This document shows, piece after piece, positions 5,685 through 21,387 of a DNA stretch of 22,492 nucleotides. Source of the DNA: a virus (taxonomy: Duplodnaviria > Heunggongvirae > Uroviricota > Caudoviricetes); the IMG/VR virus record IMGVR_UViG_2671180963_000005; one strand, given 5' to 3'. The notes beneath the pieces were generated by a model. That model ran no database searches and was not told where the DNA came from. It saw only the letters and a list, made by a program, of their open reading frames with translations. The position numbers and the translations under genes were made by a program. Positions within the stretch are counted from its first letter, which is position 1. Each line of letters begins with the position of its first letter.

Positions 5685-5794
5685 AAGTTTTAATTTATAC
5701 GCTTGCGTATTGATGGTCAAAACACGTTTTGCTATTGCTTGGATTAATACGCATTGCTATTATTCATTCATTGCAATACCAATAGGAATTGATA
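5685..5794. promoter_or_regulatory. Divergent cI/cro promoter-operator region (OR-like): inverted repeat ATACGC-tt-GCGTAT at 5697-5710; TTGCTATT motifs at 5729-5736 and 5754-5761
   Basis: Perfect 6-bp inverted repeat with 2-bp spacer; repeated motifs shared with the 3141-3181 region; lies between divergently transcribed repressor and Cro-like genes. Confidence 0.6.
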
Positions 5795-6022
5795 ATGACA
5801 AATCAAACCATTCAACTCGCAATCAGTATTACAGGTAGTCAAAAACGACTGGCAGATCTATGCGGTGTAGCCCAACCCACAGTTTGGCGTTGGCTACACG
5901 GTGGCGGAATTGATGCCCGCTATGTAATGAAAATTGTCTCAGCCACTGGTGGAAAGATTAAACCAGCAGATATTCGTCCCGACCTCGCACCATTGTTTAA
6001 CGCGAGTAATTCTGCCGCCTAA
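5795..6022 (+). CDS. Cro/YdaS-like HTH regulator
   Basis: 75-aa ORF with HTH (QKRLADLCGVAQPTVWRW); SD AGGAA 6 nt upstream of the ATG at 5795; divergent from the repressor. Confidence 0.7.
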   Translation: MTNQTIQLAISITGSQKRLADLCGVAQPTVWRWLHGGGIDARYVMKIVSATGGKIKPADIRPDLAPLFNASNSAA

Positions 6023-6678: not shown

Positions 6679-7608
6679 ATGGCAAACACTGCTGAGATAT
6701 TCAATTTTCCAGTGCCGGATGTGGCACAAAAGGAGCGGCGCGTGGCAGATCTCGACGATGGTTATACGCGCATTGCAAATGAGTTGCTGGAAGCTGTGAT
6801 GCTGGCCGGATTAACACAGCACCAGCTTCTGGTCTTCCTGGCTGTCATGCGCAAAACATATGGCTTTAATAAAAGACTGGATTGGGTGAGCAACGAGCAA
6901 CTTTCCGAATTGACCGGGATATTGCCGCACAAGTGTTCTGCTGCAAAAAGCGTTCTGGTAAAGCGTGGGATTCTTATTCAGAGCGGGCGGAATATCGGCA
7001 TTAATAATGTGGTCAGTGAATGGTCAACATTACCCGAATCAGGTAAGAAAAATAAAGTTTACCTGAAAGAGGTAAATTTACCTGAATCAGGTAAAAAAAG
7101 TTTACCCAAATCAGGTAAAGGCGTTTACCCGAATCAGGTAAACACAAAAGACAAACTAACAAAAGACAATATAAAACCTTTTTCGTCCGAGAATTCTGGC
7201 GAATCCTCTGACCAACCAGAAAACGATCTTCCTGTGGTGAAACCGGATGCTGCAATTCAGAGCGGCAGCAAGTGGGGGACAGCAGAAGACCTGACCGCCG
7301 CAGAGTGGATGTTTGACATGGTGAAGACCATCGCGCCATCAGCCAGAAAACCGAATTTTGCAGGGTGGGCTAACGATATCCGCCTGATGCGTGAACGTGA
7401 CGGACGTAACCACCGCGACATGTGCGTGCTGTTCCGCTGGGCATGCCAGGACAACTTCTGGTCCGGTAACGTGCTAAGTCCGGCCAAACTCCGCGACAAG
7501 TGGACCCAGCTCGAAATCAACCGAAACAAGCAACAGGCTGGCGTGACAGCCGGCAAACCAAAACTCGACCTGACGAACACTGACTGGATTTACGGGGTGG
7601 AGCTATGA
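6679..7608 (+). CDS. O: Replication initiator O (hybrid: divergent iteron-binding N-domain, lambda-like P-interacting C-domain)
   Basis: N-terminus aligns with the lambda O start (…VADLDDGY…); C-terminal ~130 aa match lambda O; SD GGGAGG before the ATG at 6679 (an in-frame ATG at 6589 overlapping the upstream stop is an alternative start); iterons inside the gene. Confidence 0.85.
   Translation: MANTAEIFNFPVPDVAQKERRVADLDDGYTRIANELLEAVMLAGLTQHQLLVFLAVMRKTYGFNKRLDWVSNEQLSELTGILPHKCSAAKSVLVKRGILIQSGRNIGINNVVSEWSTLPESGKKNKVYLKEVNLPESGKKSLPKSGKGVYPNQVNTKDKLTKDNIKPFSSENSGESSDQPENDLPVVKPDAAIQSGSKWGTAEDLTAAEWMFDMVKTIAPSARKPNFAGWANDIRLMRERDGRNHRDMCVLFRWACQDNFWSGNVLSPAKLRDKWTQLEINRNKQQAGVTAGKPKLDLTNTDWIYGVEL
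7030..7141. repeat. Replication origin iterons: five copies of TTACC(C/T)(G/A)A(A)(T/A)(C/G)AGGTAA at 7030, 7059, 7078, 7102 and 7125, followed by an A-rich tract (7142-7195)
   Basis: Direct repeats seen in sequence, each internally palindromic (TTACC…GGTAA), inside the O gene and encoding the LPESGKK repeats; same architecture as ori-lambda. Confidence 0.85.
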
Positions 7609-8306
7609 AAAACATCGCCGCACAGATGGTTAACTTTGACTGTGAGCAGATGCGCCGGATCGCCAACAACATGCCGGAACAGTACGACGAAAAGCCACAG
7701 GTACAGCAGGTAGCGCAGATCATCAACGGTGTGTTCAGCCAGTTACTGGCAACTTTCCCGGCGAGCCTGGCTAACCGTGACCAGAATGAACTGAACGAAA
7801 TCCGCCGCCAGTGGGTGCTGGCTTTTCGGGAAAACGGGATCACCACAATGGAACAGGTTAACGCTGGAATGCGCGTAGCCCGTCGGCAGAATCGACCATT
7901 CCTGCCATCACCCGGGCAGTTTGTCGCCTGGTGCCGGGAAGAAGCATCTGTTAACGCCGGGCTGCCAAACGTCAGCGAGCTGGTTGATATGGTTTACGAG
8001 TATTGCCGGAAGCGTGGCCTGTATCCGGATGCAGAGTCTTATCCGTGGAAATCGAACGCGCATTACTGGTTGGTTACCAACTTGTACCAGAACATGCGGG
8101 CCAATGCGCTGACTGACGCGGAATTACGGCGCAAGGCTGCCGATGAACTGACCTGTATGACAGCGCGAATTAACCGTGGTGAGACGATACCTGAACCAGT
8201 AAAACAACTTCCTGTTATGGGCGGTAGACCTCTAAATCGTGCACAGGCTCTGGCGAAGATCGCAGAAATTAAAGCTAAGTTCGGACTGAAAGGAGCAAGT
8301 GTATGA
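7605..8306 (+). CDS. P: Replication protein P (DnaB helicase loader)
   Basis: 233 aa, near-identical to lambda P as remembered (MKNIAAQMVNFD…AKFGLKGASV); ATGA overlap with the O stop. Confidence 0.95.
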   Translation: MKNIAAQMVNFDCEQMRRIANNMPEQYDEKPQVQQVAQIINGVFSQLLATFPASLANRDQNELNEIRRQWVLAFRENGITTMEQVNAGMRVARRQNRPFLPSPGQFVAWCREEASVNAGLPNVSELVDMVYEYCRKRGLYPDAESYPWKSNAHYWLVTNLYQNMRANALTDAELRRKAADELTCMTARINRGETIPEPVKQLPVMGGRPLNRAQALAKIAEIKAKFGLKGASV

Positions 8307-8605
8307 CGGGCAAAGAGGCAATTATTCATTACCTGGGGACGCATAAGAGCTTCTGTGCACAGGACGTTGCCGCGGTAACAGGCGCAACCGTAACCAGCAT
8401 AAATCAGGCTGCGGCTAAAATGGCGCGGGCAGGAATCCTGGTCGTTGATGGTAAGGTCTGGCGAACGGTGTATTACCGGTTCGCTACCAGAGAAGAACGG
8501 GAAGGAAAGGTGAGCACGAATCTGATTTTTAAGGAGTGTCGCCAGAGTGCCGCGATGAAACGGGTATTGAGGGTATATAAAAGAACATCAATGGGAACAC
8601 AATGA
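8303..8605 (+). CDS. ren: Ren (Rex-exclusion relief protein)
   Basis: 100 aa, close match to lambda Ren (MTGKEAIIHYLGTH…ATREEREGK…); ATGA overlap with the P stop. Confidence 0.9.
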   Translation: MTGKEAIIHYLGTHKSFCAQDVAAVTGATVTSINQAAAKMARAGILVVDGKVWRTVYYRFATREEREGKVSTNLIFKECRQSAAMKRVLRVYKRTSMGTQ

Positions 8606-8672
8606 TGAAACAGGTGAGTTGAGTTCAAACTGTAGTACAATTCTCTCCAGTTTGAACAGGAAAGAATATGCT

Positions 8673-9005
8673 ATGAATCCTTATATTTATCTTGGTGGTG
8701 CAATACTTGCAGAGGTCATTGGTACAACCTTAATGAAGTTTTCAGAAGGTTTTACACGGTTATGGCCATCTGTTGGTACAATTATTTGTTATTGTGCATC
8801 ATTCTGGTTATTAGCTCAGACGCTGGCTTATATTCCTACAGGGATTGCTTATGCTATCTGGTCAGGAGTCGGTATTGTCCTGATTAGCTTACTATCATGG
8901 GGATTTTTCGGCCAACGGTTGGACCTGCCAGCCATTATAGGCATGATGTTGATTTGTGCCGGTGTGTTGGTTATTAATTTATTGTCACGAAGCACACCAC
9001 ATTAA
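8673..9005 (+). CDS. emrE: EmrE small multidrug resistance efflux transporter
   Basis: 110 aa from the ATG at 8673, recognised as E. coli EmrE (MNPYIYLGGAILAEVIGTTLMKFSEGF… with Glu14); four TM helices; the ORF-track start at 8619 is an upstream extension. Confidence 0.95.
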   Translation: MNPYIYLGGAILAEVIGTTLMKFSEGFTRLWPSVGTIICYCASFWLLAQTLAYIPTGIAYAIWSGVGIVLISLLSWGFFGQRLDLPAIIGMMLICAGVLVINLLSRSTPH

Positions 9006-9260
9006 AAATAATTTGTTTTTAAACGACTAAAATATGGAGGCTCGTATATTTATATGGGCCTCGTTTTATGCTTTTTGTTAATGTCTTTAGTTTTTATTCA
9101 TTCTTTTGTGCTTTCAAGATTATGGTGTAAGAAAATTGCAATACGATTATTGTTGTATATTCAAGATAATGTGACCTTAATTGTCTTTTTAAATAAAAAT
9201 TAAACAAAAATTATATCCCACCACTAAGGTTTATAAAAGCATACGTTAGCAGGTGTCACC

Positions 9261-10787
9261 ATGAAAAAAGCCATAGCATATATGCGATTTTCATCACCAG
9301 GTCAGATGTCTGGTGATTCATTAAACCGCCAGAGAAGGCTTATTACTGAATGGCTAAAGGTAAATAGTGATTATTACCTTGATACCGTAACGTATGAAGA
9401 TTTGGGGTTAAGCGCATTCAATGGAAAGCATGCACAATCAGGAGCTTTTTCGGAATTTTTAGATGCTATAGAACATGGTTATATATTGCCAGGGACTACA
9501 TTGTTAGTTGAAAGTCTGGACAGACTTTCAAGAGAAAAAGTCGGTGAGGCGATTGAGCGTCTGAAATTGATTTTGAATCACGGTATTGATGTTATAACTC
9601 TTTGCGATAATACAGTCTATAATATTGACTCATTGAATGAGCCATATTCATTAATAAAAGCCATACTTATAGCACAAAGGGCAAATGAAGAAAGCGAGAT
9701 AAAGTCAAGTCGGGTTAAATTATCATGGAAGAAAAAACGGCAGGATGCACTGGAGTCAGGCACGATTATGACGGCGTCTTGTCCGAGATGGCTCTCATTG
9801 GATGACAAAAGAACGGCTTTTGTTCCAGACCCCGACAGGGTGAAAACTATTGAGCTAATTTTTAAACTCAGGATGGAAAGGCGCTCATTGAATGCAATAG
9901 CCAAGTATTTAAATGATCATGCTGTAAAGAATTTCTCAGGAAAAGAAAGTGCATGGGGACCTTCTGTAATTGAAAAATTATTAGCGAATAAAGCTCTGAT
10001 AGGTATATGCGTACCTTCATATCGTGCAAGAGGTAAAGGAATAAGTGAAATCGCTGGCTATTATCCCAGAGTCATATCAGATGATTTGTTTTACGCTGTG
10101 CAGGAAATTCGGTTGGCACCTTTTGGTATTAGCAATAGTAGCAAAAATCCTATGTTGATAAATCTACTTCGAACAGTTATGAAGTGCGAGGCTTGTGGTA
10201 ATACCATGATTGTTCATGCGGTATCTGGAAGTTTGCATGGCTATTATGTTTGTCCGATGAGAAGACTGCATCGATGTGACAGGCCATCAATAAAGAGAGA
10301 TTTGGTTGATTATAATATCATTAATGAGTTGCTTTTTAATTGTAGTAAAATCCAACCAGTTGAAAACAAGAAAGATGCTAATGAAACTTTAGAGTTGAAA
10401 ATTATTGAGCTCCAGATGAAAATTAATAATTTAATTGCTGCATTATCTGTTGCGCCTGAAGTTACCGCTATAGCAGAAAAAATCAGAGTATTAGATAAGG
10501 AATTACGAAGGGCTTCTGTATCATTAAAAACTTTGAAGAGTAAAGCGGTGAGTTCACTTGGTGATTTTCATGCTATTGACTTAACCAGTAAAAATGGGCG
10601 AGAGCTATGTCGTACACTTGCCTATAAAACATTCGAAAAAATCATAATCAATACAGATAATAAAACCTGTGATATCTATTTTATGAATGGCATTGTTTTT
10701 AAACACTATCCTTTAATGAAAACAATATCCGCCCAGCAGGCGATAAGTACTCTCAAATATATGGTTGATGGTGAGGTTTATTTTTGA
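9261..10787 (+). CDS. ybcK: YbcK-like large serine recombinase
   Basis: 508 aa; N-terminal resolvase catalytic domain (YMRFSSPGQ); matches DLP12 YbcK as remembered; AT-rich; follows emrE as in DLP12. Confidence 0.9.
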   Translation: MKKAIAYMRFSSPGQMSGDSLNRQRRLITEWLKVNSDYYLDTVTYEDLGLSAFNGKHAQSGAFSEFLDAIEHGYILPGTTLLVESLDRLSREKVGEAIERLKLILNHGIDVITLCDNTVYNIDSLNEPYSLIKAILIAQRANEESEIKSSRVKLSWKKKRQDALESGTIMTASCPRWLSLDDKRTAFVPDPDRVKTIELIFKLRMERRSLNAIAKYLNDHAVKNFSGKESAWGPSVIEKLLANKALIGICVPSYRARGKGISEIAGYYPRVISDDLFYAVQEIRLAPFGISNSSKNPMLINLLRTVMKCEACGNTMIVHAVSGSLHGYYVCPMRRLHRCDRPSIKRDLVDYNIINELLFNCSKIQPVENKKDANETLELKIIELQMKINNLIAALSVAPEVTAIAEKIRVLDKELRRASVSLKTLKSKAVSSLGDFHAIDLTSKNGRELCRTLAYKTFEKIIINTDNKTCDIYFMNGIVFKHYPLMKTISAQQAISTLKYMVDGEVYF

Positions 10788-10898
10788 GTAATAATCACTT
10801 TTTCAACCGTGCTATAGTAAGAAAGTTAGGTAAGTACAATAAAATTATCTATCCTGAACGAAGCGTCCTGAGCTATGGTTTTACTATAGGGACTGCCA

Positions 10899-11198
10899 AT
10901 GGATGCTGGCGTTCTCGTTCTAGCAGTTCAACAATACCCAATCACAAAACAATTCACTGATAACAAACTTTGTGCACGTGCTTGGTTATGGCGAGCAGGT
11001 GATGTGATGTTAACTGCCTGCCAGAACGTTACTCCACTACTTCAGGTTGCGGAGCACCGCGAAGCCGGCCGCTTTACTTCTATCGAGCAAGAATATCCCC
11101 AGATACTCAACAGAGCGCGAGCAATCCTCGCCAGAGAAACGGCACATGTAAAATTCCAGCCGTGGCTGGATGATAAGTGGAGTCGAGTGTTACCATAA
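10899..11198 (+). CDS. Hypothetical protein (99 aa), unknown function
   Basis: ORF followed by a terminator hairpin; no recognised homology; start uncertain. Confidence 0.35.
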   Translation: MDAGVLVLAVQQYPITKQFTDNKLCARAWLWRAGDVMLTACQNVTPLLQVAEHREAGRFTSIEQEYPQILNRARAILARETAHVKFQPWLDDKWSRVLP

Positions 11199-11240
11199 TT
11201 CCGTCAGAATCTGTTCCAATAAAGTCACTAGTTAGAAATA

Positions 11241-11279
11241 CTGCCAGCATTCTACGATGACGGAAGTGCTGGCATTTTT
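11241..11279 (+). terminator. Rho-independent terminator
   Basis: Stem TGCCAGCA (11241-11248) / TGCTGGCA (11266-11273) followed by TTTTTT, just downstream of the 99-aa ORF. Confidence 0.6.
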
Positions 11280-11456
11280 TGGGTAATATGCGAGTCCATT
11301 TCATAAAATACGGGTGCTGTAAACTGGACGATATAATCTAAAATATACCATTACCAGTAGCGTTCAAATCGCTATGTGCCGATACGGATAAAATTATATT
11401 GATTGTGCACATACCTTATTGGATATTACTGAGGGGTATTTATATAAGGTGTAACG

Positions 11457-11966
11457 ATGATGTGGAACTTTGACAGTGCCGACTTAAGTGCAATAGCAGC
11501 AGGTATTTCTGCGTTTGGCACATTAGCCGCAGCGGGGTCGGCGCTTGCAAGTTGGTACACGTCAAAAAAAGCGCTGCAGCTACAAAATAGAGTTTACCTT
11601 TATGAGTCTTTAAAGGCTTGCGCTGAGAGAGCCAATTCATCAGCTAAAGATAAGCGCGGATCTGAATGGAGCGTTAATGATGCAGCGGATATCATCAGGT
11701 GCCTAGTACGGGCGATGGAGATCATCAAGCAGGATAGCCAGCAGAAAGAAGGTAATCAGGCATTAATGTTGAAACAGTACTTTGTTAATCTGCTAATAAT
11801 GGAACTGTACGAGGAAGTTCATAACGGTGATGCGGCTGATTCTGTTTTTAAAAGTACGGAACCTACACAAGTACTTGATAACTTATGGAGCAAATGGCAG
11901 GAGGCTATAGCTTTTTTTGATATTTGGAATTACCCAGTTGCGACTGAGGAAGACTTGGCAGACTAA
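11457..11966 (+). CDS. Hypothetical membrane-anchored protein (169 aa): N-terminal hydrophobic helix, helical acidic C-domain
   Basis: SD AAGGTG upstream of the ATG; predicted TM segment AIAAGISAFGTLAAAGSALASW; no homologue recognised; sits in the nin-region cargo position. Confidence 0.55.
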   Translation: MMWNFDSADLSAIAAGISAFGTLAAAGSALASWYTSKKALQLQNRVYLYESLKACAERANSSAKDKRGSEWSVNDAADIIRCLVRAMEIIKQDSQQKEGNQALMLKQYFVNLLIMELYEEVHNGDAADSVFKSTEPTQVLDNLWSKWQEAIAFFDIWNYPVATEEDLAD

Positions 11967-12160
11967 TTTTCAGCACATTTGATTTCCAATAATCAACCAG
12001 CCATAATCATGCCATTGGGGCCTGAACAACTCCGGTGACTTCTGCGCTAAACGGGGACGTTTATGCGCACATACAATCCAACCTCTCTTCTCCATTCACA
12101 GATGCAGAAATGCACCTGCGATATTTTGCATCCAGCGTTTGATCTCTGCGGAGGTGAAGC

Positions 12161-12378
12161 GTGAACCTCCCACAAGATGGTATCAAATTGCATCGCGGTA
12201 ACTTCACCGCTATCGGTCGGCAGATCCAGCCTTATCTGGAGGACGGCAAATGCTTTCGCATGGTGCTTAAACCGTGGCGCGAGAGACGCAGTCTTTCCCA
12301 GAATGCACTCAGCCACATGTGGTACAGCGAAATCAGTGAATACCTCATCAGCAAGGGTAAAACGTTCGCCACTCCAGC
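12161..12378 (+). pseudogene. NinB/YbcN-family protein, N-terminal fragment only (truncated at a deletion junction)
   Basis: GTG start with strong SD GGAGGTG; about 70 codons resembling the DLP12 YbcN/NinB N-terminus (…RSLSQNALSHMWYSEISEYL…), then the frame runs into J-derived sequence and stops. Confidence 0.5.
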
Positions 12379-12381
12379 TTG

Positions 12382-13228
12382 GGTATCCGCACCGGCGGGC
12401 GCGTGCTGGCGGTAAACAGCCAGACCCGGACGCTGACGCTCGACCGTGAAATCACGCTGCCATCTTCCGGCACCACGCTGATAAGCCTGGTTGACGGGCA
12501 GGGGAGTCCGGTCAGCGTGGAGGTTCAGTCCGTCACCGACGGCGTGAAGGTGAAAGTGAGCCGTGTTCCTGACGGCGTTGCTGAATACAGCGTATGGGGG
12601 CTGAAGCTGCCGACGTTGCGCCAGCGCCTGTTCCGCTGCGTGAGTATCCGTGAGAACGACGACGGCACGTATGCCATCACCGCCGTGCAGCATGTACCGG
12701 AAAAAGAGGCCATCGTGGATATTGAGAACACCCCTGACGGCATGCAGAGTCAGGTGCTGCTGGCGGCGGACAGGATTGCGATGGTTAATCCTGCGAATGG
12801 CAACACAAAACCGATGTTTGTTGGTCAGGGCGATCAGATATTCATGAACGACGTGTTCCTGAAACGCCTGACGGCCCCCACCATTACCAGCGGTGGAAAT
12901 CCACCGGCATTTTCCCTGACACCGGACGGAAAGCTGACCGCTAAAAATGCGGATATCAGTGGCAGTGTGAATGCGAACGCCGGGACGCTCAACAATGTCA
13001 CGGTAAATGAAAACTGTACGATTAAGGGCATGCTGGAGGCGACTCAGGTCAGAGGTGACTTCGTTAAAGCTGTATCCAAATCATTCCCGAAACAGGCTGG
13101 TACGTGGGGTAATACGGAAACACCAAACGGGACGGTTACAGTCACCATCAGCGATGATCATAACTTTGACCGTCAAATCATTATTCCGCCCATTATCTTT
13201 AACGGAATAGCGTATAGCGATCCGGGAA
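12382..13228 (+). pseudogene. J: Tail tip/host-specificity protein J, C-terminal remnant (N-terminal ~700 codons missing, internal gap, C-terminal end replaced)
   Basis: Translation matches lambda J segments [30 protein letters not shown]…[29 protein letters not shown] and …[54 protein letters not shown]…DDH.FDRQI; no start codon or upstream J sequence. Confidence 0.8.
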
Positions 13229-16078
13229 GTGGTAATAACCGATGCTGCAGGCTCAGCACGTGCCGCCAGCACGTCAGCCGGACAGGCCGCGTCGTCGGCT
13301 CAGTCAGCGTCTTCCAGCGCAGGAACGGCATCGACAAAGGCCCGTGAAGCAGCAAAAAGTGCTGCTGCAGAGTCCTCAAAAAGCGCGGCAGCTACCAGTG
13401 CCGGTGCGGCGAAAACGTCAGAAACGAATGCGGCAGCGTCACAACAATCAGCAGCCACTTCTGCATCCGCCGCGACCACGAAGGCGTCAGAAGCAGCCAC
13501 CTCAGCCCGGGATGCGGCGGCCTCAAAAGAGGCAGCGAAATCATCAGAAACGAACGCATCATCAAGCGCCAGTAGTGCCGCTTCCTCGGCAACGGCGGCA
13601 GGCAATTCCGCGAAGGCGGCAAAGACGTCTGAGACAAACGCCAGGTCTTCTGAAACGGCAGCGGGACAGAGCGCCTCGGCTGCGGCAGGCTCAAAAACAG
13701 CGGCTGCGTCGTCTGCCAGTGCCGCGTCAACAAGTGCCGGGCAGGCCTCAGCCAGTGCCACCGCCGCCGGAAAATCGGCAGAAAGCGCCGCATCGTCTGC
13801 TTCAACAGCCACAACGAAGGCTGGCGAAGCCGCTGAACAGGCCAGCGCAGCAGCGAGGTCTGCATCCGCAGCGAAGACATCCGAAACGAACGCGAAAGCC
13901 TCGGAAACCAGTGCAGAATCCTCAAAAATGGCAGCTGCATCGTCCGCCAGTTCGGCGGCGTCATCGGCATCATCTGCGTCTGCTTCAAAAGATGAGGCGA
14001 GCAGACAGGCATCAGCAGCGAAAGGCAGCGCCACGACAGCATCCACGAAGGCGACAGAGGCAGCTGGCAGTGCGACGGCGGCATCTCAGAGCAAAACTAC
14101 TGCTGAATCCGCTGCGACCCGTGCGGAAGCTGCTGCTGATCGTGCTGAAGAGATTGCCGGTGCAGTTGCGATGGAAGACGCAAGCCTTACAACTAAAGGT
14201 GTTGTGAAACTTAGCAGTGCTGTTGATAGCACCAGTGAATCGCTGGCCGCAACGCCAAAAGCAGTTAAAGCAGCCAATGACAATGCGAATAGCAGGGTGC
14301 CATCTAACCGAAAAGTTAACGGAAAAGCACTGACTGCGGATATAACATTAACGCCGAAAGATATTGGTACTTTAAATTCAGTAACGATGTCTTTCTCTGG
14401 CGGGGCTGGGTGGTTCAAACTGGCTACGGTTACCATGCCACAAGCGAGTTCCATCGTTTACATCGCATTGATTGGTGGCGCTGGTTACAACGTCGGTTCC
14501 CCACATCAGGCAGGCATTTCAGAACTGGTTCTACGAGCAGGCAATGGAAACCCCAAAGGAATTACCGGGGCTTTGTGGAAGCGTACAGCCGTCGGATTAA
14601 CGAATTTCGCCTGGATCAACACATCCGGCGATACATATGATATTTACGTTGAGATTGGCAATTATGCGACGAGTGTAAATATCCATTGGGATTGTACTGC
14701 AAATGCGTCAGTTTCTGTTTATACCTCGCCAACATATTCAGCGAGTAAGCCTTCCAGCGTTACCTATGGTGTTGTTTATACGATGTATAGCTCACATCAG
14801 AAACCTACACCATCAGATATTGGAGCACTGCCAACAACCGGAGGAACAGTTTCAGGTCCGTTGTCTGTTACAGGTGGATTAACTGGTTCATTGAATGGTA
14901 ATGCAAGTACAGCCACGAAATTGCAGACGGCAAGATCTATCGGTGGAGTTGTTTTCGACGGTTCTGCAAATATTAACCTTCCAGGTGTAAACACTACGGG
15001 TAATCAGAACACCACTGGTAATGCTGCAACTGCTACAAAACTCCAGACTGCAAGAAAAATATCCGGTGTTCCATTTGATGGTTCCAAAGATATTACTTTA
15101 ACCGCCGCGCATGTGGCTGCTTTTGCCAGAAGGGCAACGGATACATATGCCGATGCGGATGGTGGCGTTCCCTGGAATGCCGAATCAGGCGCTTACAATG
15201 TCACCCGCTCTGGCGACAGCTATATTCTGGTTAACTTCTATACCGGAGTCGGAAGTTGCCGGACCCTGCAGATGAAGGCGCATTACAGAAATGGTGGTCT
15301 GTTCTACCGTTCTTCAAGAGACGGTTATGGTTTTGAGGAAGGCTGGGCAGAAGTTTATACCTCGAAAAATCTTCCACCAGAAAGCTACCCAGTCGGCGCA
15401 CCAATCCCGTGGCCATCAGATACCGTTCCGTCTGGTTATGCCCTGATGCAGGGGCAGACTTTTGACAAATCTGCTTACCCGAAACTTGCAGCCGCTTATC
15501 CGTCAGGCGTGATCCCTGATATGCGTGGCTGGACGATTAAGGGCAAACCTGCCAGTGGTCGGGCCGTATTGTCTCAGGAACAGGACGGCATTAAATCGCA
15601 CACCCACAGCGCCAGCGCATCCAGTACGGATTTGGGGACGAAAACCACATCGTCGTTTGATTACGGAACCAAATCCACGAATAACACCGGGGCGCATACC
15701 CATAGTATTAGCGGGACCGCAAATAGTGCCGGTGCGCACCAACACAAGAGTTCCGGTGCATTTGGTGGCACGAACACGAGCATTTTCCCTAATGGTTATA
15801 CCGCGATTTCAAATCTAAGCGCGGGGATTATGAGCACAACAAGCGGTAGTGGCCAGACTCGTAATGCAGGGAAGACATCATCAGATGGTGCTCATACCCA
15901 CTCGCTGTCCGGCACTGCTGCAAGCGCAGGCGCACATGCACATACTGTCGGTATTGGTGCTCATACGCACTCCGTTGCGATTGGCTCACATGGACACACC
16001 ATCACCGTTAACGCTGCTGGTAACGCGGAAAACACCGTCAAAAACATCGCATTTAACTACATTGTGAGGCTTGCATAA
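13229..16078 (+). CDS. stf: Side tail fibre protein Stf, 5'-truncated relative to lambda Stf (possibly non-functional)
   Basis: 949-aa ORF from a GTG; homology to lambda Stf begins at its residue ~128 (VTDA…[17 protein letters not shown]); Ala/Ser/Thr-rich repeats (AKTSETNA); C-terminus with His-rich GAH(T/A)HS repeats and …[25 protein letters not shown] as in lambda. Confidence 0.8.
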
Positions 16079-16662
16079 TGGCATTCAGAATGAGTGAACA
16101 ACCACGGACCATAAAAATTTATAATCTGCTGGCCGGAACTAATGAATTTATTGGTGAAGGTGACGCATATATTCCGCCTCATACAGGTCTGCCAGCAAAC
16201 AGTACCTATATTGCACCGCCAGATATTCCGGTAGGCTTCGTGGCTGTTTTCAACAGTGATGAGGCATCGTGGCATCTCGTTGAAGATCATCGGGGAAAAA
16301 CCGTCTATGACGTGGCTTCCGGCGACTCGTTATTTATTTCTGAACTCGGACCTCTACCGGAAAATATCACCTGGTTATCCCCGGAAGGGGAGTTTCAGAA
16401 GTGGAACGGCACAGCCTGGGTGAAGGATACGGAAGCAGAAAAACTGTTCCGGATCCGGGAGGCGGAAGAAACAAAAAACAGCCTGATGCAGGTAGCCAGT
16501 GAGCATATTGCCCCGCTTCAGGATGCTGCAGATCTGGAAATCGCAACGGAGGAAGAAACCTCGTTGCTTGAAGCCTGGAAGAAGTATCGGGTGTTGCTGA
16601 ATCGTGTTGATACATCAACTGCACCTGATATTGAGTGGCCTGCAATCCCTGTTATGGAATAA
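16078..16662 (+). CDS. tfa: Tail fibre assembly protein Tfa
   Basis: 194 aa, near-identical to lambda Tfa ([24 protein letters not shown]…); start overlaps the stf stop (TAATG). Confidence 0.95.
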
Positions 16663-17022
16663 TAGTTTTGTGATATGCCGCAGAAACGTTATATGCAATA
16701 ACGTGCTGCGGTTGGCTGATGTACTTTCGAGAGTGTATTGAATAATTTCCAACCGTCATTAATTTTATTTATTTTTTGTATGAGAGGATTTGAACCTCCG
16801 AGCCTCGACACCTTATGACAACGCGATATTGCCTTGATGACCGCCATGTGCCAAAATAACCAATTGATAAATAAGTTGATTTTAATTGGTTGGAAGCAAG
16901 TCAGGTCAAATTCAGCATTCCGCTCTCTGTATCGGATAGTTAAATTTTTCTATAACTGATAGTAATATGTTAAAACTCACACAGATAAATTATCATTGCT
17001 CAACAAGTATAATGGAGTTCCC

Positions 17023-18978
17023 GTGGATACAGCAGAACATGATGGCAAGTTTGCTTGGGCTAGTTTTTATGAGGCTTTTGCCAACGCGTTACTGACTTGG
17101 CGAAATCGTAGAGATGAATTAGTCAAAGGTATTCATCTAATTGCCTCGGGTGTGGAAGGAATGTCCCATCTGCAGGACAAATCTATTATGGGAGAGATCT
17201 TTCCCTTAAAAGACATTTGTCCGTTTACTACTATGGGCTTGTTCAATCGTAACTTGACCGACAGCAATCGCAAAATTATTGCTGCCAAGCTAGCGAATTT
17301 GTTGGGCGTGAACGAACCGATTCCTGACTCCTTTGCCGGAATCCCTCTGTTGAATAACCAAAAATCTTGGTTCTTTGGTTATGAAAAGTCACGCGACCCT
17401 AATGACATTGAATGCTTGTGGGAAATGTTCTCACAGGCAATGATCTTTGCGGATAACCAGAATACTAACTCTGCAGACTTCACTGCCGCATATGACATCG
17501 CTTCTACAGTAATGAATGTCGGTTGGAATCTCACCATGGGGTTGTACTGGACCCGTCCTTGGTTCTACCCCACTTTAGATAGCCAGTCGCAGTATTACAT
17601 TCAGACAGTGTTAAACATTAAGATCATTAAAAACGGGGCAAAAGGTCGCTGTAGTGGACAAAGTTACCTGAGTCTTATGCGGGCGCTGAACGAGGTCTTT
17701 ACCCAACCAAACTATCCGGTTCATTCTTTCCCAGAACTTTCCTTATCAGCGTGGAATACAGATCTTAGCCAGTCTAAAGATGAGGTGGCAAATAGAACGT
17801 GGAAAGCCTCTTTACTGAATAAAATTAAGGCGTTATGCCTGAAAAAAAATGGCCCTTATTTCACTGCTTCGGAGTTGGAAGAAAACTACTTGGACGTATT
17901 CAAGGTAGAGCATCCTGAGAGCAAAACTGTTACAAGCTCAATCTACTTTTATCTACAGAAACTATGCAATGATGATGAGTTAAAGTCCCTCGAGTCCGGA
18001 AATTATGAATACCTGAATTTTGAGAAAAACGAATCCCAGACGATAACTGAGGAAACTGTCGAAGAGAGTGCGCTGTTGCCAAAACTCACCCACGTTCCTT
18101 ATGACATCAGTCATCTGGTGCAGGATGGCTGTTTCTTGGAAGAGGCTAAGATCCAACTCACACTTCAGCGCCTGATCGACAAGAAAAACCTGATATTACA
18201 AGGACCACCCGGAACTGGAAAAACTTGGTTAGCGCGACGTCTGGCGTACTGCTTGATGGGAGAAAAAGCACCTGAGCGTATTAGCGCGGTGCAATTTCAC
18301 CCGAACCTCTCTTACGAAGACTTTATTCGAGGCTGGCGTCCAGGTAAAGAAGGGCAATTGACGCTAATTGATGGACCTTTTGTAAATGCAATCAAAACTG
18401 CAGTCAATAATCCTACCTCGAAATATGTGGTGATAATTGAAGAGATTAATCGTGGCAATCCGGCGCAAATCTTCGGTGAAACACTCACGTTGATGGAAGC
18501 AGATAAACGCACGCCGACTGAGGCATTATCTCTTTCCTATCCTAAAAATGCTGATGAAAAAATATACATTCCTGAGAATCTATATATCATCGGTACGATG
18601 AATATTGCAGACCGCTCACTCGCACTACTTGACCTAGCGCTGCGCCGTCGTTTCGCGTTTATCGATCTAAAGCCAGCTTTTAATGACGCGTGGAGAAACT
18701 GGGTAAATTATAATTACGCAATTGATTTTGACATGTTAGCATTCATCAAATCTCGACTGACGGTATTAAACGATATGCTGGCAAAAGATGTTACCTTAGG
18801 ACCACAGTTTTGTATCGGTCACAGCTATGTCACCCCAGCTATCGGCCAAAAAATCAACGATGCCCAGGCTTGGTATGAACAAGTCGTTGATACAGAGATC
18901 TGCCCTTTGCTCGCCGAATATTGGTTCGATGCTCCAAATAAAGTCGATGAAGCCAGAAAAGTGTTATTAGCAAAATGA
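17023..18978 (+). CDS. McrB-like AAA+ GTPase subunit of a type IV (modification-dependent) restriction system, with a long unrecognised N-terminal domain (~380 aa)
   Basis: C-terminal half aligns with E. coli McrB GTPase motifs: GPPGTGKT (Walker A), VVIIEEINRGN, NIADRS, LRRRF; start taken as the GTG at 17023 after SD GGAG (ORF track begins at a TTG at 16996); N-terminal region unlike K-12 McrB-N. Confidence 0.85.
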   Translation: MDTAEHDGKFAWASFYEAFANALLTWRNRRDELVKGIHLIASGVEGMSHLQDKSIMGEIFPLKDICPFTTMGLFNRNLTDSNRKIIAAKLANLLGVNEPIPDSFAGIPLLNNQKSWFFGYEKSRDPNDIECLWEMFSQAMIFADNQNTNSADFTAAYDIASTVMNVGWNLTMGLYWTRPWFYPTLDSQSQYYIQTVLNIKIIKNGAKGRCSGQSYLSLMRALNEVFTQPNYPVHSFPELSLSAWNTDLSQSKDEVANRTWKASLLNKIKALCLKKNGPYFTASELEENYLDVFKVEHPESKTVTSSIYFYLQKLCNDDELKSLESGNYEYLNFEKNESQTITEETVEESALLPKLTHVPYDISHLVQDGCFLEEAKIQLTLQRLIDKKNLILQGPPGTGKTWLARRLAYCLMGEKAPERISAVQFHPNLSYEDFIRGWRPGKEGQLTLIDGPFVNAIKTAVNNPTSKYVVIIEEINRGNPAQIFGETLTLMEADKRTPTEALSLSYPKNADEKIYIPENLYIIGTMNIADRSLALLDLALRRRFAFIDLKPAFNDAWRNWVNYNYAIDFDMLAFIKSRLTVLNDMLAKDVTLGPQFCIGHSYVTPAIGQKINDAQAWYEQVVDTEICPLLAEYWFDAPNKVDEARKVLLAK

Positions 18979-20096
18979 CGACAATAACCGGGAGTGAGCA
19001 ACATACAGCATCACGTATTCCCATGCGAAATATCTGGATGCTGATGCTGTACGCTTCAGATCTGTTTCGCCAGTTAGGACGCAATCAGATCGCAGTAGAA
19101 GATAACCCAGCAGAAATCCCCGACCTGGTGGCGACAATCCTCCTTCATGAGATTACGCTGCGCCGACGTCGCAATTTAAATATGGGATACCAAACTTGTC
19201 ATGCGGCCCTGAACCGGGTGAGAGGGCGCATTGACATACTGTATACTGCCAGTCATCAACTGCTGGAACGGGGACAGGTTGCCTGCCATTTTCAAGACAT
19301 AACCCTCAACACCCCCCGAAATCGCTATGTTCGCTGTGCGTTAGAACGTCTGGCCTCAATCATAGTGAAACCGTCTTTGGCGGCAGATTGCCATTTTATG
19401 GCAATATCACTTCGCCGTGAGGGGATAAATGGAGGATATCCTGCCCCCCGCGAATTACCCTCAGTGTGGCGTTTTGGACGCCATGATGCCGCAGATAAAC
19501 CGATGGTCGATGCCGCACGATTAGCTTTTGAACTGCTGATGCCGACCGAAGATCAAGGCCAATATCTTTTACCTGCGCCCTCAAATAACCTTTACTGGAT
19601 GAGAAGACTATTTGAAAAAGGTATCGCTGGCTTATATCGTGTACACCTTGCCAAAACAACTTGGCAGGTCTCTGCAGGGAAAGAGCTGAAATGGGCGTTG
19701 AGCGATCAAAGTGCAGGTAGTGCAGAGATTTTCCCGACAATGAAGTCAGACATTATTCTGGAACACAAGACTGCCCAGCGGCGTATTATTATCGATACCA
19801 AATTTAATTCGATTCTGACAAAGGGTTGGCATCGGGAGCAATCACTACGTAATGGCTATATTTATCAGCTATATACCTACCTTAGAACACAGGAGAACAA
19901 GACGGATCCGCTTTCGCTCAATGCCGCTGGTCTTCTACTTCATCCAGCTGTTGGCTATATGCTTAATGAGTATGTTGTCACTCAGGGACATAAGATCCAT
20001 TTTGCTACAGTAGATATGACGGTAGATGCTAAAGCAATTAAAAAACAATTGCTGGCAATAGCCCATGATTGTGCAGGAGTCGCGGTTGATGACTAA
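18975..20096 (+). CDS. McrC-like nuclease subunit (PD-(D/E)xK) of the type IV restriction system
   Basis: 373 aa; ATGA overlap with the mcrB-like stop; N-terminal IPMRNIWMLMLYA resembles McrC IPVRNIYYMLTYA; C-terminal PD…D-x-K candidates (KSDIILEH…IIIDTKF). Confidence 0.8.
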   Translation: MTTITGSEQHTASRIPMRNIWMLMLYASDLFRQLGRNQIAVEDNPAEIPDLVATILLHEITLRRRRNLNMGYQTCHAALNRVRGRIDILYTASHQLLERGQVACHFQDITLNTPRNRYVRCALERLASIIVKPSLAADCHFMAISLRREGINGGYPAPRELPSVWRFGRHDAADKPMVDAARLAFELLMPTEDQGQYLLPAPSNNLYWMRRLFEKGIAGLYRVHLAKTTWQVSAGKELKWALSDQSAGSAEIFPTMKSDIILEHKTAQRRIIIDTKFNSILTKGWHREQSLRNGYIYQLYTYLRTQENKTDPLSLNAAGLLLHPAVGYMLNEYVVTQGHKIHFATVDMTVDAKAIKKQLLAIAHDCAGVAVDD

Positions 20097-20796
20097 CCAT
20101 CCTATAAGGCACTGGCTGTAATATAATCAATAGTTTCAATTAAGTAGCTGTTATCCGTGCTTAGTCATCATATGACGCACCACGGTCTAATTTTCCTGCT
20201 CATACATTGATATATCCTTGTCGTGCCCGGAAAGTCGCAGTCCACTATGAGGTATACCGATTGCCAGCACCAAAAGCTTCTTTGTGATTATTATATCGGG
20301 GAATGCCTATTTTTTTAGTGACAATATCAGATAGCAATTAATAAGCGGTGCCGGTAATGGATGTTATGTTTAATGTATAGACACAGCCATCATAAACTAA
20401 ACGTCTGTTGTTCGCTCATAACCGACATTTATCTCAGTTATGGAGGATAATTATGTATGCAGATAATGGGGCAGACAGTCGTGGAGTAAACAAGGTTTTG
20501 CACTGCTTGGCGGCATCGTTATCTTATTTTTAATTATGTGCCTCTTAACATAAGTTGGGACAAAACAGAGACACATAAGGTCTCACAAAGGTCTGCAAGG
20601 CCTCACATGTATTGAGATGTTAATAAAATGTAGACTTGTAATTTGGATATAAATGGTAGAGAAAACCTTTCCCCAAAATAAAAACGAACGTCAATGAAAT
20701 CAAACGGTTGAATAAAGTTTATTTTGGCTAATAAAAAGACAATAAAATAATTTTTATCGTTAAATATCAATGACTTGAATTCATGGTTTTTATATA

Positions 20797-20961
20797 CTGC
20801 TGCGCCATATGGGTTGGACTGAAGCGGCTGACCTGATTGTTAAAGGTATGGAAGGCGCAATCAATGCCAAGACCGTAACTTATGACTTCGAACGTCTGAT
20901 GGAAGGCGCTAAGCTGCTGAAATGTTCAGAGTTTGGTGAAGCGATCATCGAAAACATGTAA
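20797..20961 (+). pseudogene. icd: 3'-terminal fragment of icd (isocitrate dehydrogenase; last ~52 codons plus stop), phage-borne attP-type copy as in e14/phage 21
   Basis: Translates to [54 protein letters not shown], matching the Icd C-terminus with D-to-E substitutions; no upstream icd sequence. Confidence 0.85.
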
Positions 20962-20983
20962 TCTCTCCATGTGTTAAATATTG

Positions 20984-21016
20984 AAACGGGCGTATAACAC
21001 GCCCGTTGTTTTATTT
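20984..21016 (+). terminator. icd-type rho-independent terminator
   Basis: Perfect 9-bp stem AACGGGCGT / ACGCCCGTT with a 5-nt loop followed by GTTTTATTT, 23 bp after the icd-fragment stop. Confidence 0.8.
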
Positions 21017-21063
21017 ATGTGGATATTATTAATAGCATATCGAGCATATTTATATGAAGCCCA

Positions 21064-21387
21064 TTACTTGAGCCCATATGGGCATATTTTTATAATGCAA
21101 CTATTATGTAAACATTTATTTGTTATTTTGCTTTCTCCTGGAGGACACTCTTGACTGCTTTTGAGTAAACTCCATAAATCCTTGTTGAATGGTGCGATGT
21201 GATAAATAGTAATAGGATATTCTTTATCCTTAAGGATAATACCAGACTTAACCGGTGTAAATATACTGCCAGGAGGGAGAAATATAGTAGATTGATACCA
21301 GATGATCATTTTCATATTACCCCATATGGCTGAAAAAGATATACCACATGTAGGTTGAATTACCGTGTCAATTACTATCCACTTCAT
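21064..21387 (-). CDS. Hypothetical protein (107 aa), AT-rich, unknown function
   Basis: ORF only; no clear SD; no recognised homology. Confidence 0.25.

What the first reader, a model, noticed from the sequence alone, without database searches (positions are those of the whole stretch)
10899..11966. Two uncharacterised cargo ORFs between ybcK and the nin-like fragment, including a membrane-anchored 169-aa protein
Where DLP12 carries ybcL-ybcM-ylcH, this element has a 99-aa ORF followed by a terminator and a separately transcribed 169-aa ORF with a strong SD, one N-terminal TM helix and an acidic helical C-domain. I recognise neither. Lambdoid cargo slots often hold superinfection-exclusion or abortive-infection genes.
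Basis: inference. Interest (0 to 1): 0.5.

Follow-up and report, generated by a model that had tools for sequence, protein, structure and literature searches.

The report
Gene remnant plus orphan phage membrane protein
Of the two reading frames, the first is a decaying leftover of a known phage regulator gene, and the second is a real, well-conserved prophage accessory gene for a small membrane-anchored protein whose function nobody has tested.

Summary
Both ORFs exist at the stated coordinates. ORF1 (10899-11198, 99 aa) is not an unknown cargo gene. It is the C-terminal half (Pfam P22AR_C) of a 202-249 aa Bro-N/P22AR_C antirepressor-like gene that is intact in sister phages. Here the emrE-ybcK module cuts it off. 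It has also lost its last 8 codons, and 7 of 17 sister loci carry an internal stop. ORF2 (11457-11966, 169 aa; phrog_1779, RefSeq WP_000990013.1) is a genuine gene. It is full length in 47 of 48 viral contigs and occurs in 181 of 5,426 complete E. coli genomes. It belongs to a tiny enterobacterial phage family (35 clusters at 50% identity among 1.84 billion proteins). It matches nothing in Pfam, NCBIfam or PADLOC, and no solved or viral structure. Its predicted architecture is a short acidic N-tail, an Ala/Gly/Ser-rich hydrophobic helix (N-out, C-in), a cytoplasmic all-helical acidic domain and a conserved TDEDLxD tail. A promoter-like site flanked by an inverted repeat lies upstream. An intrinsic terminator ends the remnant. 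Close relatives always sit directly before ninB or DUF1367. Sister phages carry the validated defence gene PD-lambda-1 in the same slot. The function is untested. My best guess is a non-enzymatic accessory protein acting at the inner membrane in phage exclusion or abortive infection.

The parts
10827..10911 (+). Junction segment between the end of K-12 DLP12-type homology (ybcK module) and the start of homology to the Bro-type gene of sister phages. It supplies the ATG of ORF1.
   Evidence: blastn: K-12 homology covers window 8392-10826 and phage homology starts at 10912.
10899..11198 (+). ORF1, 99 aa: 3' remnant (P22AR_C domain only) of a Bro-N/P22AR_C antirepressor-like gene; probable pseudogene.
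   Evidence: Pfam PF10548 E 9e-13 with no Bro-N domain. 86% identical to residues 100-194 of the 202-aa PhiR26_1 protein, which has Bro-N plus P22AR_C. Stop at codon 100 where sister loci read on for 8 more codons. Internal nonsense in 7 of 17 ybcK-linked loci. Annotated as a pseudogene in O104:H4.
11242..11280 (+). Intrinsic-terminator-like hairpin (stem 11242-11274) plus U6, preceded by an A-rich tract. It ends the Bro-type gene.
   Evidence: RNAfold -20.3 kcal/mol, z = -2.64. The spacer it lies in (11199-11456) is 94-96% identical in the sister-phage loci L003, L004 and L009.
11399..11427 (+). Conserved sigma-70-like promoter candidate for ORF2: -35 TTGATT (11399-11404), 17-nt spacer, -10 GATATT (11422-11427). 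The inverted repeat ATACC (11411-11415) / GGTAT (11435-11439) brackets the -10 element and may be an operator.
   Evidence: Alignments A3 and A6: TTG and GATATTA are invariant in 7 loci with 50-79% protein identity, and the ATACCC...GGGTAT arms recur. The match is 8 of 12, below the scan threshold.
11447..11451 (+). Shine-Dalgarno sequence AGGUG, 5 nt upstream of the ORF2 ATG.
   Evidence: Sequence read directly. GAGGT or AAGGA at the same place in homologues.
11457..11966 (+). ORF2, 169 aa: orphan phage accessory protein (phrog_1779; WP_000990013.1). Predicted parts: acidic N-tail (aa 1-11), small-residue-rich hydrophobic helix (aa 12-32), basic juxtamembrane stretch, cytoplasmic helical bundle (aa 40-155), acidic C-terminal tail TEEDLAD.
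   Evidence: dN 0.24-0.39 with saturated dS against L005 and L006. Full length in 47 of 48 viral loci.
11490..11552 (+). Codons 12-32 of ORF2: predicted membrane helix. Conserved small residues are S18, A19, G/A21, A24-26, A28, A29 and invariant S32. Bulky residues at 13, 16/17, 20, 23, 27 and 30 vary.
   Evidence: Hydropathy and charge bias. Conservation periodicity peaks at 100 degrees per residue.

Best explanation
The interval holds one dead gene and one live gene.

ORF1 is a non-functional leftover. A Bro-N/P22AR_C (Rha/Roi/Ant-like) early gene lost its DNA-binding N-terminal half when the emrE-ylcJ-ybcK module was recombined in. The remainder is now accumulating nonsense mutations. (Shown.)

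ORF2 is a selectively maintained, self-contained accessory gene of DLP12-type lambdoid phages. Its close relatives always occupy the last position of the variable slot, directly before the first nin-region gene (ninB or DUF1367). It has its own conserved promoter-like site, bracketed by an operator-like inverted repeat. A terminator insulates it from the upstream gene. Its G+C content is lower than that of its neighbours. (Shown at the sequence level; transcription itself is inferred.)

Its product is predicted to insert in the inner membrane with a short acidic N-tail outside. The membrane helix is Ala/Gly/Ser-rich, and its conserved small-residue surface suggests tight helix-helix packing, either self-association or docking on a partner membrane protein. 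About 130 residues form an acidic helical bundle in the cytoplasm, ending in a TDEDLxD tail. No catalytic-looking conserved residues are present. (Predicted.)

The mechanism I consider most likely is inferred, not shown. The protein would act non-enzymatically at the cytoplasmic face of the inner membrane in conflict between phages. It would either block the entry or establishment of superinfecting phages, or disturb the membrane once its cytoplasmic domain is triggered. The stated confidence refers to this mechanistic part. The ORF1 verdict alone is about 0.85.
For: ORF1:
- Domain content and truncation point.
- Three allelic states, including internal stops, in 17 ybcK-linked loci.
- Pseudogene annotation in O104:H4.

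ORF2 is a real gene:
- The family is conserved from 22 to 98% identity at constant length.
- dS is saturated with dN 0.24-0.39.
- It is full length in 47 of 48 viral loci, even where ORF1 is broken and ninB is truncated.
- It is 98.4-100% identical among E. coli copies, while the flanks are 87-96% identical.

Autonomy:
- Upstream terminator.
- Conserved promoter-like element with inverted repeat.
- G+C below that of the flanks in 9 of 9 contexts.
- Canonical intrinsic terminators about 20 nt (17-23 nt) after the stop in 4 of 4 distant contexts.

Membrane topology:
- Hydropathy and charge bias across 32 members, and the three-TM N-terminal extension in P0042.
- Helical periodicity of conservation.
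- AlphaFold2 model with a long helix 8-63 followed by a helical bundle, pLDDT 82.

Non-enzymatic: the conserved positions are mostly Ala, Leu, Ile, Phe and Trp, plus S32, Q43 and N60.

Defence-type neighbourhood:
- PD-lambda-1 lies in the same ren-ninB slot of sister phages.
- An RT plus SLATT pair lies about 2 kb from a distant member.
Against: - There is no functional or expression data of any kind, and no paper mentions the protein.
- There is no similarity to any known exclusion, abortive-infection or defence family in PADLOC, PHROGs, Pfam or NCBIfam.
- The gene is always co-oriented with the early operon. Distant members sit inside pL operons after 59-102 nt spacers, and one overlaps the upstream gene. 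This fits an early lytic gene as well as it fits a lysogen-expressed one.
- Validated defence genes in this slot, such as PD-lambda-1, are on the opposite strand.
- The promoter match is only 8 of 12.
- The hydrophobic helix of this copy is marginal for membrane insertion (KD 1.59; summed Hessa +2.7).
- Many of the E. coli loci are probably clonal, so counts of intact copies are not independent events.
Confidence: 0.4

Rival explanations
1. ORF2 is a delayed-early lytic-cycle accessory protein. It would be transcribed mainly by antiterminated read-through from pR (or pL for distant members). It would act on a host membrane-associated process or on a membrane-based host defence, in the way the neighbouring ren gene counters Rex exclusion, rather than protecting the lysogen.
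For: - It is co-oriented with the early operon in every context examined.
- Close relatives lie between the replication genes and the nin region (ninB or DUF1367).
- Distant members lie between recombination or Ead/Ea22 genes and xis-int in pL operons.
- Spacers are short, and one start codon overlaps the preceding gene.
- No promoter-like site appears upstream in the pL-type contexts.
Against: - A conserved promoter-like element with a possible operator lies directly upstream in the nin-slot subfamily.
- A terminator lies immediately upstream in the window.
- ORF2 is retained intact in defective prophages that have lost Q, lysis and head genes and have a truncated ninB.
Confidence: 0.3
2. ORF2 is a distant analogue or homologue of the HeLo/HeLL/Bell/MLKL-4HB class of membrane-targeting cell-death domains. 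In that class a helical bundle holds a small-residue-rich N-terminal helix that oligomerises in the membrane and kills the cell when released. Here the acidic C-terminal tail would be the latch or trigger.
For: - UniRef names the Hafnia alvei member 'Fungal N-terminal domain-containing protein'. That label matches the Pfam HeLo-like family PF17111, per preprint 10.1101/2020.01.06.895854.
- The architecture is similar: a hydrophobic N-terminal helix rich in small residues followed by a 4-5 helix bundle.
- The enterobacterial Bell-type protein Bab is a proven abortive-infection effector, per preprint 10.1101/2024.11.07.622273.
Against: - The current Pfam gives no hit for that member even at E <= 10, and none is consistent across 32 members.
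- hhalign of the family profile against the HET-S HeLo domain gives probability 0.1%.
- A profile search of all PDB sequences finds nothing.
- The hydrophobic helix starts at residue ~12, not 2-4. AlphaFold2 models it as a protruding extension of helix 1, not cupped by the bundle.
- No adjacent NLR or amyloid-motif partner gene is present.
Confidence: 0.1
3. ORF1 is a functional stand-alone P22AR_C-domain protein, for example a dominant-negative or partner-binding fragment, and not a pseudogene.
For: - The 99/107-aa form has its own PHROG (phrog_7640, E 4e-62).
- The exact 99-aa sequence is seen on at least 1,000 contigs.
- omega is 0.16-0.24 against full-length alleles.
Against: - The low omega reflects divergence between full-length alleles before truncation.
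- The start codon comes from junction DNA.
- Two different nonsense mutations segregate among nearly identical loci, while ORF2 next door is untouched.
- The wide occurrence is explained by clonal spread of the ybcK junction.
Confidence: 0.1
4. The N-terminal hydrophobic stretch of ORF2 is a cleaved Sec signal peptide (ALA|S at residues 29-32), and the helical domain is periplasmic.
For: An A-x-A-like motif (A29-L30-A31) precedes the invariant S32 in the window copy.
Against: - The segment before the hydrophobic stretch is net negative with no Lys or Arg in nearly all members.
- Positive charges follow the helix (mean -1.0 before, +2.1 after).
- The -1 position is not small in most members (A, L or Q).
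- AlphaFold2 models a continuous helix 8-63.
- The topology of P0042, with three extra TM segments, puts the domain in the cytoplasm.
Confidence: 0.05

Closest known systems
Bro-N / P22AR_C antirepressor-like early proteins of lambdoid phages (annotated 'Rha protein' in PhiR26_1 and PhiR5_1; same class as P22 Ant C-domain proteins and, from my own knowledge, HK022 Roi)
   Same: ORF1 carries the P22AR_C domain and is 86% identical to the C-terminal half of the PhiR26_1 protein. It also occupies the same position, directly upstream of ORF2.
   Different: The Bro-N domain (about 99 residues) and the last 8 residues are missing. The start codon is junction-derived. Sister loci carry internal stops.
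Morons of lambdoid phages (Hendrix/Juhala concept: promoter-gene-terminator cassettes of deviant G+C inserted between conserved genes; recalled from knowledge)
   Same: ORF2 has lower G+C than its flanks in 9 of 9 contexts and a conserved promoter-like site upstream. Distant members have intrinsic terminators directly downstream. The upstream neighbours vary.
   Different: The window copy has no terminator downstream. Expression in the lysogen is untested. The gene is co-oriented with the early operon, so it is also transcribed by read-through.
Small inner-membrane superinfection-exclusion or abortive-infection proteins of temperate phages (P22 SieA/SieB, HK97 gp15, T4 Imm, lambda RexB; recalled from knowledge)
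   Same: A small, single-gene, membrane-anchored, non-enzymatic accessory product of a temperate phage, in a slot that holds the validated defence gene PD-lambda-1 in sister phages.
   Different: No sequence or profile similarity to any annotated PHROG, PADLOC, Pfam or NCBIfam family. The bulk of the protein is predicted to be cytoplasmic. No phenotype is known.
HeLo / HeLL / Bell (Babybell) membrane-targeting cell-death domains
   Same: [quoted passage not shown] One member once carried a HeLo-like label in UniRef.
   Different: No profile or structural match was found here. The helix begins at about residue 12, and there is no MEPIS-type motif, amyloid motif or NLR partner.

Membership tests
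Bro-N/P22AR_C antirepressor-like proteins (ORF1) | P22AR C-terminal domain (PF10548) | tested here: met
   E 9e-13, residues 15-85 cover profile positions 3-73 of 73.
Bro-N/P22AR_C antirepressor-like proteins (ORF1) | N-terminal Bro-N (or Rha/KilA-N type) DNA-binding domain | tested here: not met
   No Bro-N hit in ORF1. Full-length sister proteins have it at residues 17-100. DNA homology starts at window 10912, inside the sister gene.
Bro-N/P22AR_C antirepressor-like proteins (ORF1) | Intact reading frame maintained by selection | tested here: not met
   Premature TAA at codon 100 in the window. Internal nonsense in 7 of 17 ybcK-linked loci. RefSeq marks it a pseudogene in O104:H4.
phrog_1779 (ORF2) | Full-length match to the PHROG profile | tested here: met
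   E 1.2e-102, residues 1-169 over profile 1-169; category 'unknown function'.
Moron (autonomous accessory cassette) | Own promoter | tested here: inconclusive
   TTGATT-N17-GATATT is conserved in 7 divergent loci, but it matches only 8 of 12 and no transcript data exist.
Moron (autonomous accessory cassette) | Factor-independent terminator after the gene | tested here: inconclusive
   None found after ORF2 in the window. Present 17-23 nt after the stop in 4 of 4 distant contexts.
Moron (autonomous accessory cassette) | Base composition deviating from neighbouring phage genes | tested here: met
   Gene G+C 37-46% against flanks 46-54% in 9 of 9 contexts; window 43.9% against 47.8%.
Moron (autonomous accessory cassette) | Expression from the repressed prophage | not testable with these tools
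   Needs RNA-seq or 5'-RACE of a lysogen.
Known anti-phage defence or superinfection-exclusion families | Profile similarity to a catalogued defence or exclusion protein | tested here: not met
   PADLOC gives 0 hits at E <= 1. The only other PHROG hit has E 0.29. Pfam and NCBIfam give none.
Known anti-phage defence or superinfection-exclusion families | Protection of the host against phage infection | not testable with these tools
   Needs plating assays.
HeLo/HeLL/Bell membrane-targeting domains | Sequence or profile similarity (PF14479, PF17111, Bell) | tested here: not met
   No Pfam hit for any of 32 members, including the Hafnia protein once so named. hhalign against the HET-S HeLo domain gives probability 0.1%. 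A PDB profile search finds nothing.
HeLo/HeLL/Bell membrane-targeting domains | Hydrophobic N-terminal helix starting at residues 2-4, with an acidic residue at position 2-3 | tested here: inconclusive
   A small-residue-rich hydrophobic helix is present but starts at about residue 12. Position 2 is Asp in only 4 of 31 members and Ser in 15.
HeLo/HeLL/Bell membrane-targeting domains | Helical bundle that cups helix 1; structural match to HeLo, Bell or MLKL | tested here: inconclusive
HeLo/HeLL/Bell membrane-targeting domains | Linked activator (NLR or TGP partner sharing an amyloid motif) | tested here: not met
   The flanking genes are phage early genes, and no NLR or TPR partner is present. 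The C-terminal tail is acidic, not amyloid-like.
Sec-secreted periplasmic protein | Positively charged n-region before the hydrophobic core | tested here: not met
   Mean net charge is -1.0 before and +2.1 after the hydrophobic segment across 32 members.

The most novel reading that the evidence does not exclude
ORF2 may found a new class of phage-borne, single-gene membrane executors. In this reading an oligomerising small-residue helix is held in check by a cytoplasmic helical bundle and an acidic C-terminal latch. It would be functionally analogous to HeLo/Bell/MLKL death domains but unrelated in sequence. Expression would come from a repressor-controlled promoter at the entrance of the nin region, and the protein would kill or depolarise the cell when a superinfecting phage is sensed.
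Probability: 0.1. Interest if true: 0.7.

Novelty: new variant of a known kind. Interest (0 to 1): 0.35.

Why it matters
ORF2 is found in about 3% of complete E. coli genomes, including O104:H4 outbreak-lineage strains. It is kept intact in prophages that are otherwise decaying, yet it belongs to no characterised family. It sits in a slot of lambdoid phages that also carries the experimentally validated defence gene PD-lambda-1. It is small and single-gene, and K-12 lacks it (K-12 has ybcL-ybcM there instead). It is therefore a cheap and clean candidate to test for phage exclusion, abortive infection or counter-defence.

If it does act through its small-residue membrane helix, it would add a new fold to the set of membrane-acting phage-conflict proteins. 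The correction for ORF1 matters for annotation: the 'P22AR C-terminal domain-containing protein' in these loci is a gene fragment.

Tried and rejected
- Pfam, NCBIfam, PADLOC and PHROGs scans of ORF2 gave only the uninformative phrog_1779.
- A Pfam scan of all 32 family members gave scattered single hits (Amj, T7_gp14, DUF1828), judged noise from the Ala-rich helix.
- An exhaustive profile search of 1.84 billion representatives and two word-indexed searches found only the small family and no larger or annotated relative.
- A profile search of PDB sequences found nothing.
- AFDB Foldseek was not available.
- I followed the HeLo-like lead from a UniRef name and could not substantiate it.
- Rfam found nothing in 10700-12500.
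- Literature searches for the accessions, the PHROG and the PhiR phages found no paper. Searches for a described ren-ninB hotspot found nothing specific.
- I looked for similarity between the ORF2 promoter inverted repeat and the prophage's own cI/cro operator region. No convincing match appeared, so I make no claim.
- A genome-contig scan with the wide alignment failed for lack of conserved stretches. The narrower one gave only three loci, in Scandinavium, Enterobacter cloacae and Phytobacter.
Full report
OBSERVATION

The interval matches many E. coli chromosomes at 100% identity. RefSeq annotates the two products as 'P22AR C-terminal domain-containing protein' (WP_029785662.1) and 'hypothetical protein' (WP_000990013.1).

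Compared with K-12 DLP12, homology runs through ybcK to window 10826 and resumes at 11978. So window 10827-11977 replaces ybcL-ybcM. The ylcH homologue (12063-12164) and the first 75 codons of ninB/ybcN (12161-12385) are retained.

ORF1 IS A GENE REMNANT

- ORF1 has a significant P22AR_C domain (PF10548, E 9e-13) and nothing else.
- Two inducible lambdoid phages (PhiR26_1, PhiR5_1) and many prophages have, at the same place, a 202-249 aa gene with Bro-N plus P22AR_C domains, followed by the ORF2 homologue.
- DNA homology between the window and those phages begins at window 10912, inside that gene. ORF1 residues 5-99 are 86% identical to residues 100-194 of the 202-aa protein.
- The ATG of ORF1 lies in the 85-bp junction segment that matches neither K-12 nor the phages.
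- The remnant comes from a diverged allele: dS is 0.32-0.45 and omega 0.16-0.24 against the full-length genes. That low omega reflects selection before truncation.
- Among 17 ybcK-linked loci I found three states. The window-type 99-aa form has TAT changed to TAA at codon 100. A 107-aa form reads to the ancestral stop. A third form has an internal Glu-to-stop change, in 7 loci including O104:H4, where RefSeq flags a pseudogene. ORF2 is untouched in all 17.

I conclude that ORF1 is a decaying 3' fragment, not a cargo gene (confidence about 0.85).

THE SPACER BETWEEN THE TWO ORFS

After ORF1 comes a strong hairpin (11242-11274) plus U6. Its fold energy is -20.3 kcal/mol, with z = -2.64. The simple scan missed it because of loop length.

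The remaining spacer is AT-rich (37% G+C). About 30-60 nt before the ORF2 start lies TTGATT-N17-GATATT (11399-11427).

I aligned the 70 nt upstream of seven homologues whose proteins are only 50-79% identical to ORF2:
- Mean column identity is 73%.
- The TTG of the -35 element and GATATTA of the -10 element are invariant.
- An inverted repeat (ATACCC ... GGGTAT, 17-18 nt apart) brackets the -10 element in most of them.
- Two further homologues (Enterobacter cloacae, Phytobacter) have a perfect TATAAT there, followed by a CCCCTC-N8-GAGGGG repeat.

The repeat arms are conserved rather than covarying. A protein-binding operator is therefore more likely than an RNA stem. This is inference. AGGUG lies 5 nt before the ATG.

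ORF2 IS A REAL GENE OF A TINY FAMILY

ORF2 equals phrog_1779 ('unknown function', E 1e-102). It has no hit in Pfam, NCBIfam or PADLOC.

How rare it is:
- The word-indexed search of 5.8 billion proteins found 15 clusters.
- The exhaustive profile search of 1.84 billion 50%-identity representatives found 35 proteins at E <= 0.001, nearly all 150-180 aa.
- A wider profile found nothing further.
- Named members come from Escherichia, Scandinavium, Enterobacter, Phytobacter, Hafnia and Cronobacter.

Evidence for selection:
- Against the 64% and 50% identical homologues, dS is saturated while dN is 0.24-0.39.
- In E. coli it occurs in 181 of 5,426 complete genomes.
- It is 98.4-100% identical among copies although the flanks are 87-96% identical.
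- It is full length in 47 of 48 IMG/VR loci.

PREDICTED PROTEIN

- With a 32-sequence alignment, AlphaFold2 gives mean pLDDT 82 and pTM 0.69. The model has one continuous helix over residues 8-63, then helices 73-94, 100-112, 115-123 and 138-153, and a short terminal helix 164-168.
- Residues 12-32 form the only hydrophobic stretch. It is borderline here (Kyte-Doolittle 1.59) and clearer across the family (median 1.87). About 63% of it is Ala, Gly, Ser or Thr. The preceding tail is net negative and the following 15 residues are net positive, which fits an N-out, C-in orientation.
- One homologue (P0042, 288 aa) has three additional, strongly hydrophobic segments fused in front. This argues that the family works in the membrane, and its topology agrees with that orientation.
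- Conservation along the helix has a sharp 100-degree periodicity. The conserved positions are small: S18, A19, G/A21, A24-26, A28, A29 and invariant S32. The variable positions are bulky and spaced 3-4 residues apart. This is the pattern of a helix packed against other helices with a lipid-facing stripe.
- Beyond the helix, Q43 is invariant, and L52, A56, N60, W71, A86, I90, F109, L113 and W147 are nearly invariant. Most members end in T-D-E-D-L-x-D, and about a quarter lack this tail.
- Nothing resembles a catalytic site. The domain is acidic (pI 4.75).

FOLD AND PROFILE COMPARISONS

- Foldseek against PDB and against BFVD gave nothing with E < 0.09 or TM > 0.41.
- hmmsearch of PDB sequences gave nothing.
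- AFDB was unavailable.

GENOMIC POSITION

- In the subfamily at or above about 50% identity, the gene is always the last one before the first nin-region gene. That gene is NinB or its positional analogue DUF1367.
- The upstream neighbour varies: Bro-type, DUF551, HNH or unknown.
- More distant members lie in pL-type operons, between recombination or Ead/Ea22 genes and xis-int. One lies in a small integrative element with its start overlapping a DNA_pol3_theta-like gene; an RT-plus-SLATT gene pair lies about 2 kb away.
- In those distant contexts a canonical intrinsic terminator follows the stop codon within 17-23 nt in 4 of 4 cases.
- The gene is poorer in G+C than its flanks in 9 of 9 contexts.
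- It is always on the early-operon strand.
- Sister E. coli phages carry PD-lambda-1 on the opposite strand between ren and the Bro-ORF2 pair (PADLOC E 2e-198).

INTERPRETATION

Shown:
- ORF1 is a remnant.
- ORF2 is a conserved coding gene of an orphan family.
- It has a conserved upstream element and a characteristic position.

Predicted: a bitopic inner-membrane protein with a cytoplasmic helical domain.

Inferred: ORF2 is an accessory (moron-type) gene acting non-enzymatically at the membrane.

I rate a role in phage exclusion or abortive infection as most likely (0.4). An early-lytic or counter-defence role is close behind (0.3), because orientation and operon context fit it equally well.

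A HeLo/Bell-like death-domain reading was prompted by a UniRef label on the Hafnia member and by the published properties of Bell domains. It failed every sequence test I could run. No fold search I ran turned up a HeLo- or MLKL-type match among its top hits. It remains the most novel reading not excluded (about 0.1).

A cleaved signal peptide is unlikely because of the charge distribution.

NOVELTY AND SCORE

- No paper in the library mentions the protein, its accessions or its PHROG.
- The general kind, a small membrane-anchored prophage accessory protein, is familiar. The family and fold are uncharacterised.
- It is a reasonable but not surprising candidate for experiment. Interest is 0.35.

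Noticed in passing
window 11979-12070: Immediately after ORF2, where K-12 DLP12 homology resumes, lies a conserved TTGATT-N17-CATAAT promoter-like site (11979-12007) followed by two hairpins. Hairpin 1 has stems at 12013-12020 and 12030-12037 and a conserved 9-nt loop CCUGAACAA. Hairpin 2 spans 12043-12067 with a GGGA tetraloop. Both stems covary across window, K-12, Scandinavium, Enterobacter, Phytobacter and a metagenomic locus; RNAalifold finds compensatory changes in 5 of 11 pairs of hairpin 2. There is no Rfam match. It may be a structured leader of the ylcH-ninB operon, reminiscent of nut or put elements, but this is untested.
   Followed up: partly
L003 5653-5750 versus window 12043-12140: In PhiR26_1 and strain GN02270, a second copy (90.8% identity, 98 nt) of the nin leader from hairpin 2 onward lies upstream of the Bro-type gene. 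The Bro-ORF2 cassette is therefore bracketed by direct repeats of the leader. This suggests the cassette was inserted, or can be exchanged, by recombination within that leader.
   Followed up: partly
window 11411-11439: An inverted repeat, ATACC(C) ... (G)GGTAT, is centred on the -10-like element of the ORF2 promoter candidate. The arms are conserved in sequence in most homologues, like an operator. I found no convincing similarity to the prophage's own cI/cro operator region at 5700-5800.
   Followed up: partly
window 12161-13347: ninB is cut after codon 75 and fused to a tail-tip gene fragment (12379-13347), followed by tail-fibre and assembly genes. The element has therefore lost Q, lysis, head and most tail genes. 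No complete E. coli genome in the collection holds more than 67% of the window in one piece; the best matches cover 7371-22492. The left part (int, cI, cII/YdaT, O) is joined differently elsewhere.
   Followed up: partly
window 16996-20096: A McrB-family (660 aa) and McrC pair sits at the right end of the element, next to the icd remnant and iraM. The McrB-like protein gives only weak PADLOC hits (REase_II, E 4e-17), and McrC gives none.
   Followed up: no
L013 2031-6519 (GCA_051307055.1): A distant ORF2-family member (P0027) lies in a small integrative element (Ogr/Delta, HTH_17, integrase). Its start overlaps a DNA_pol3_theta-like gene. A reverse transcriptase plus SLATT_5 pair, which looks like a defence system, lies about 2 kb away.
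   Followed up: no
P0019 (Hafnia alvei), cluster listing: UniRef names this family member 'Fungal N-terminal domain-containing protein'. The label corresponds to the Pfam HeLo-like family, but the current Pfam does not reproduce any hit.
   Followed up: yes
window 11225-11285: The terminator hairpin after ORF1 is flanked by an A-rich tract upstream and a U-tract downstream, and the two pair in the fold. It could therefore terminate transcription in both directions.
   Followed up: no
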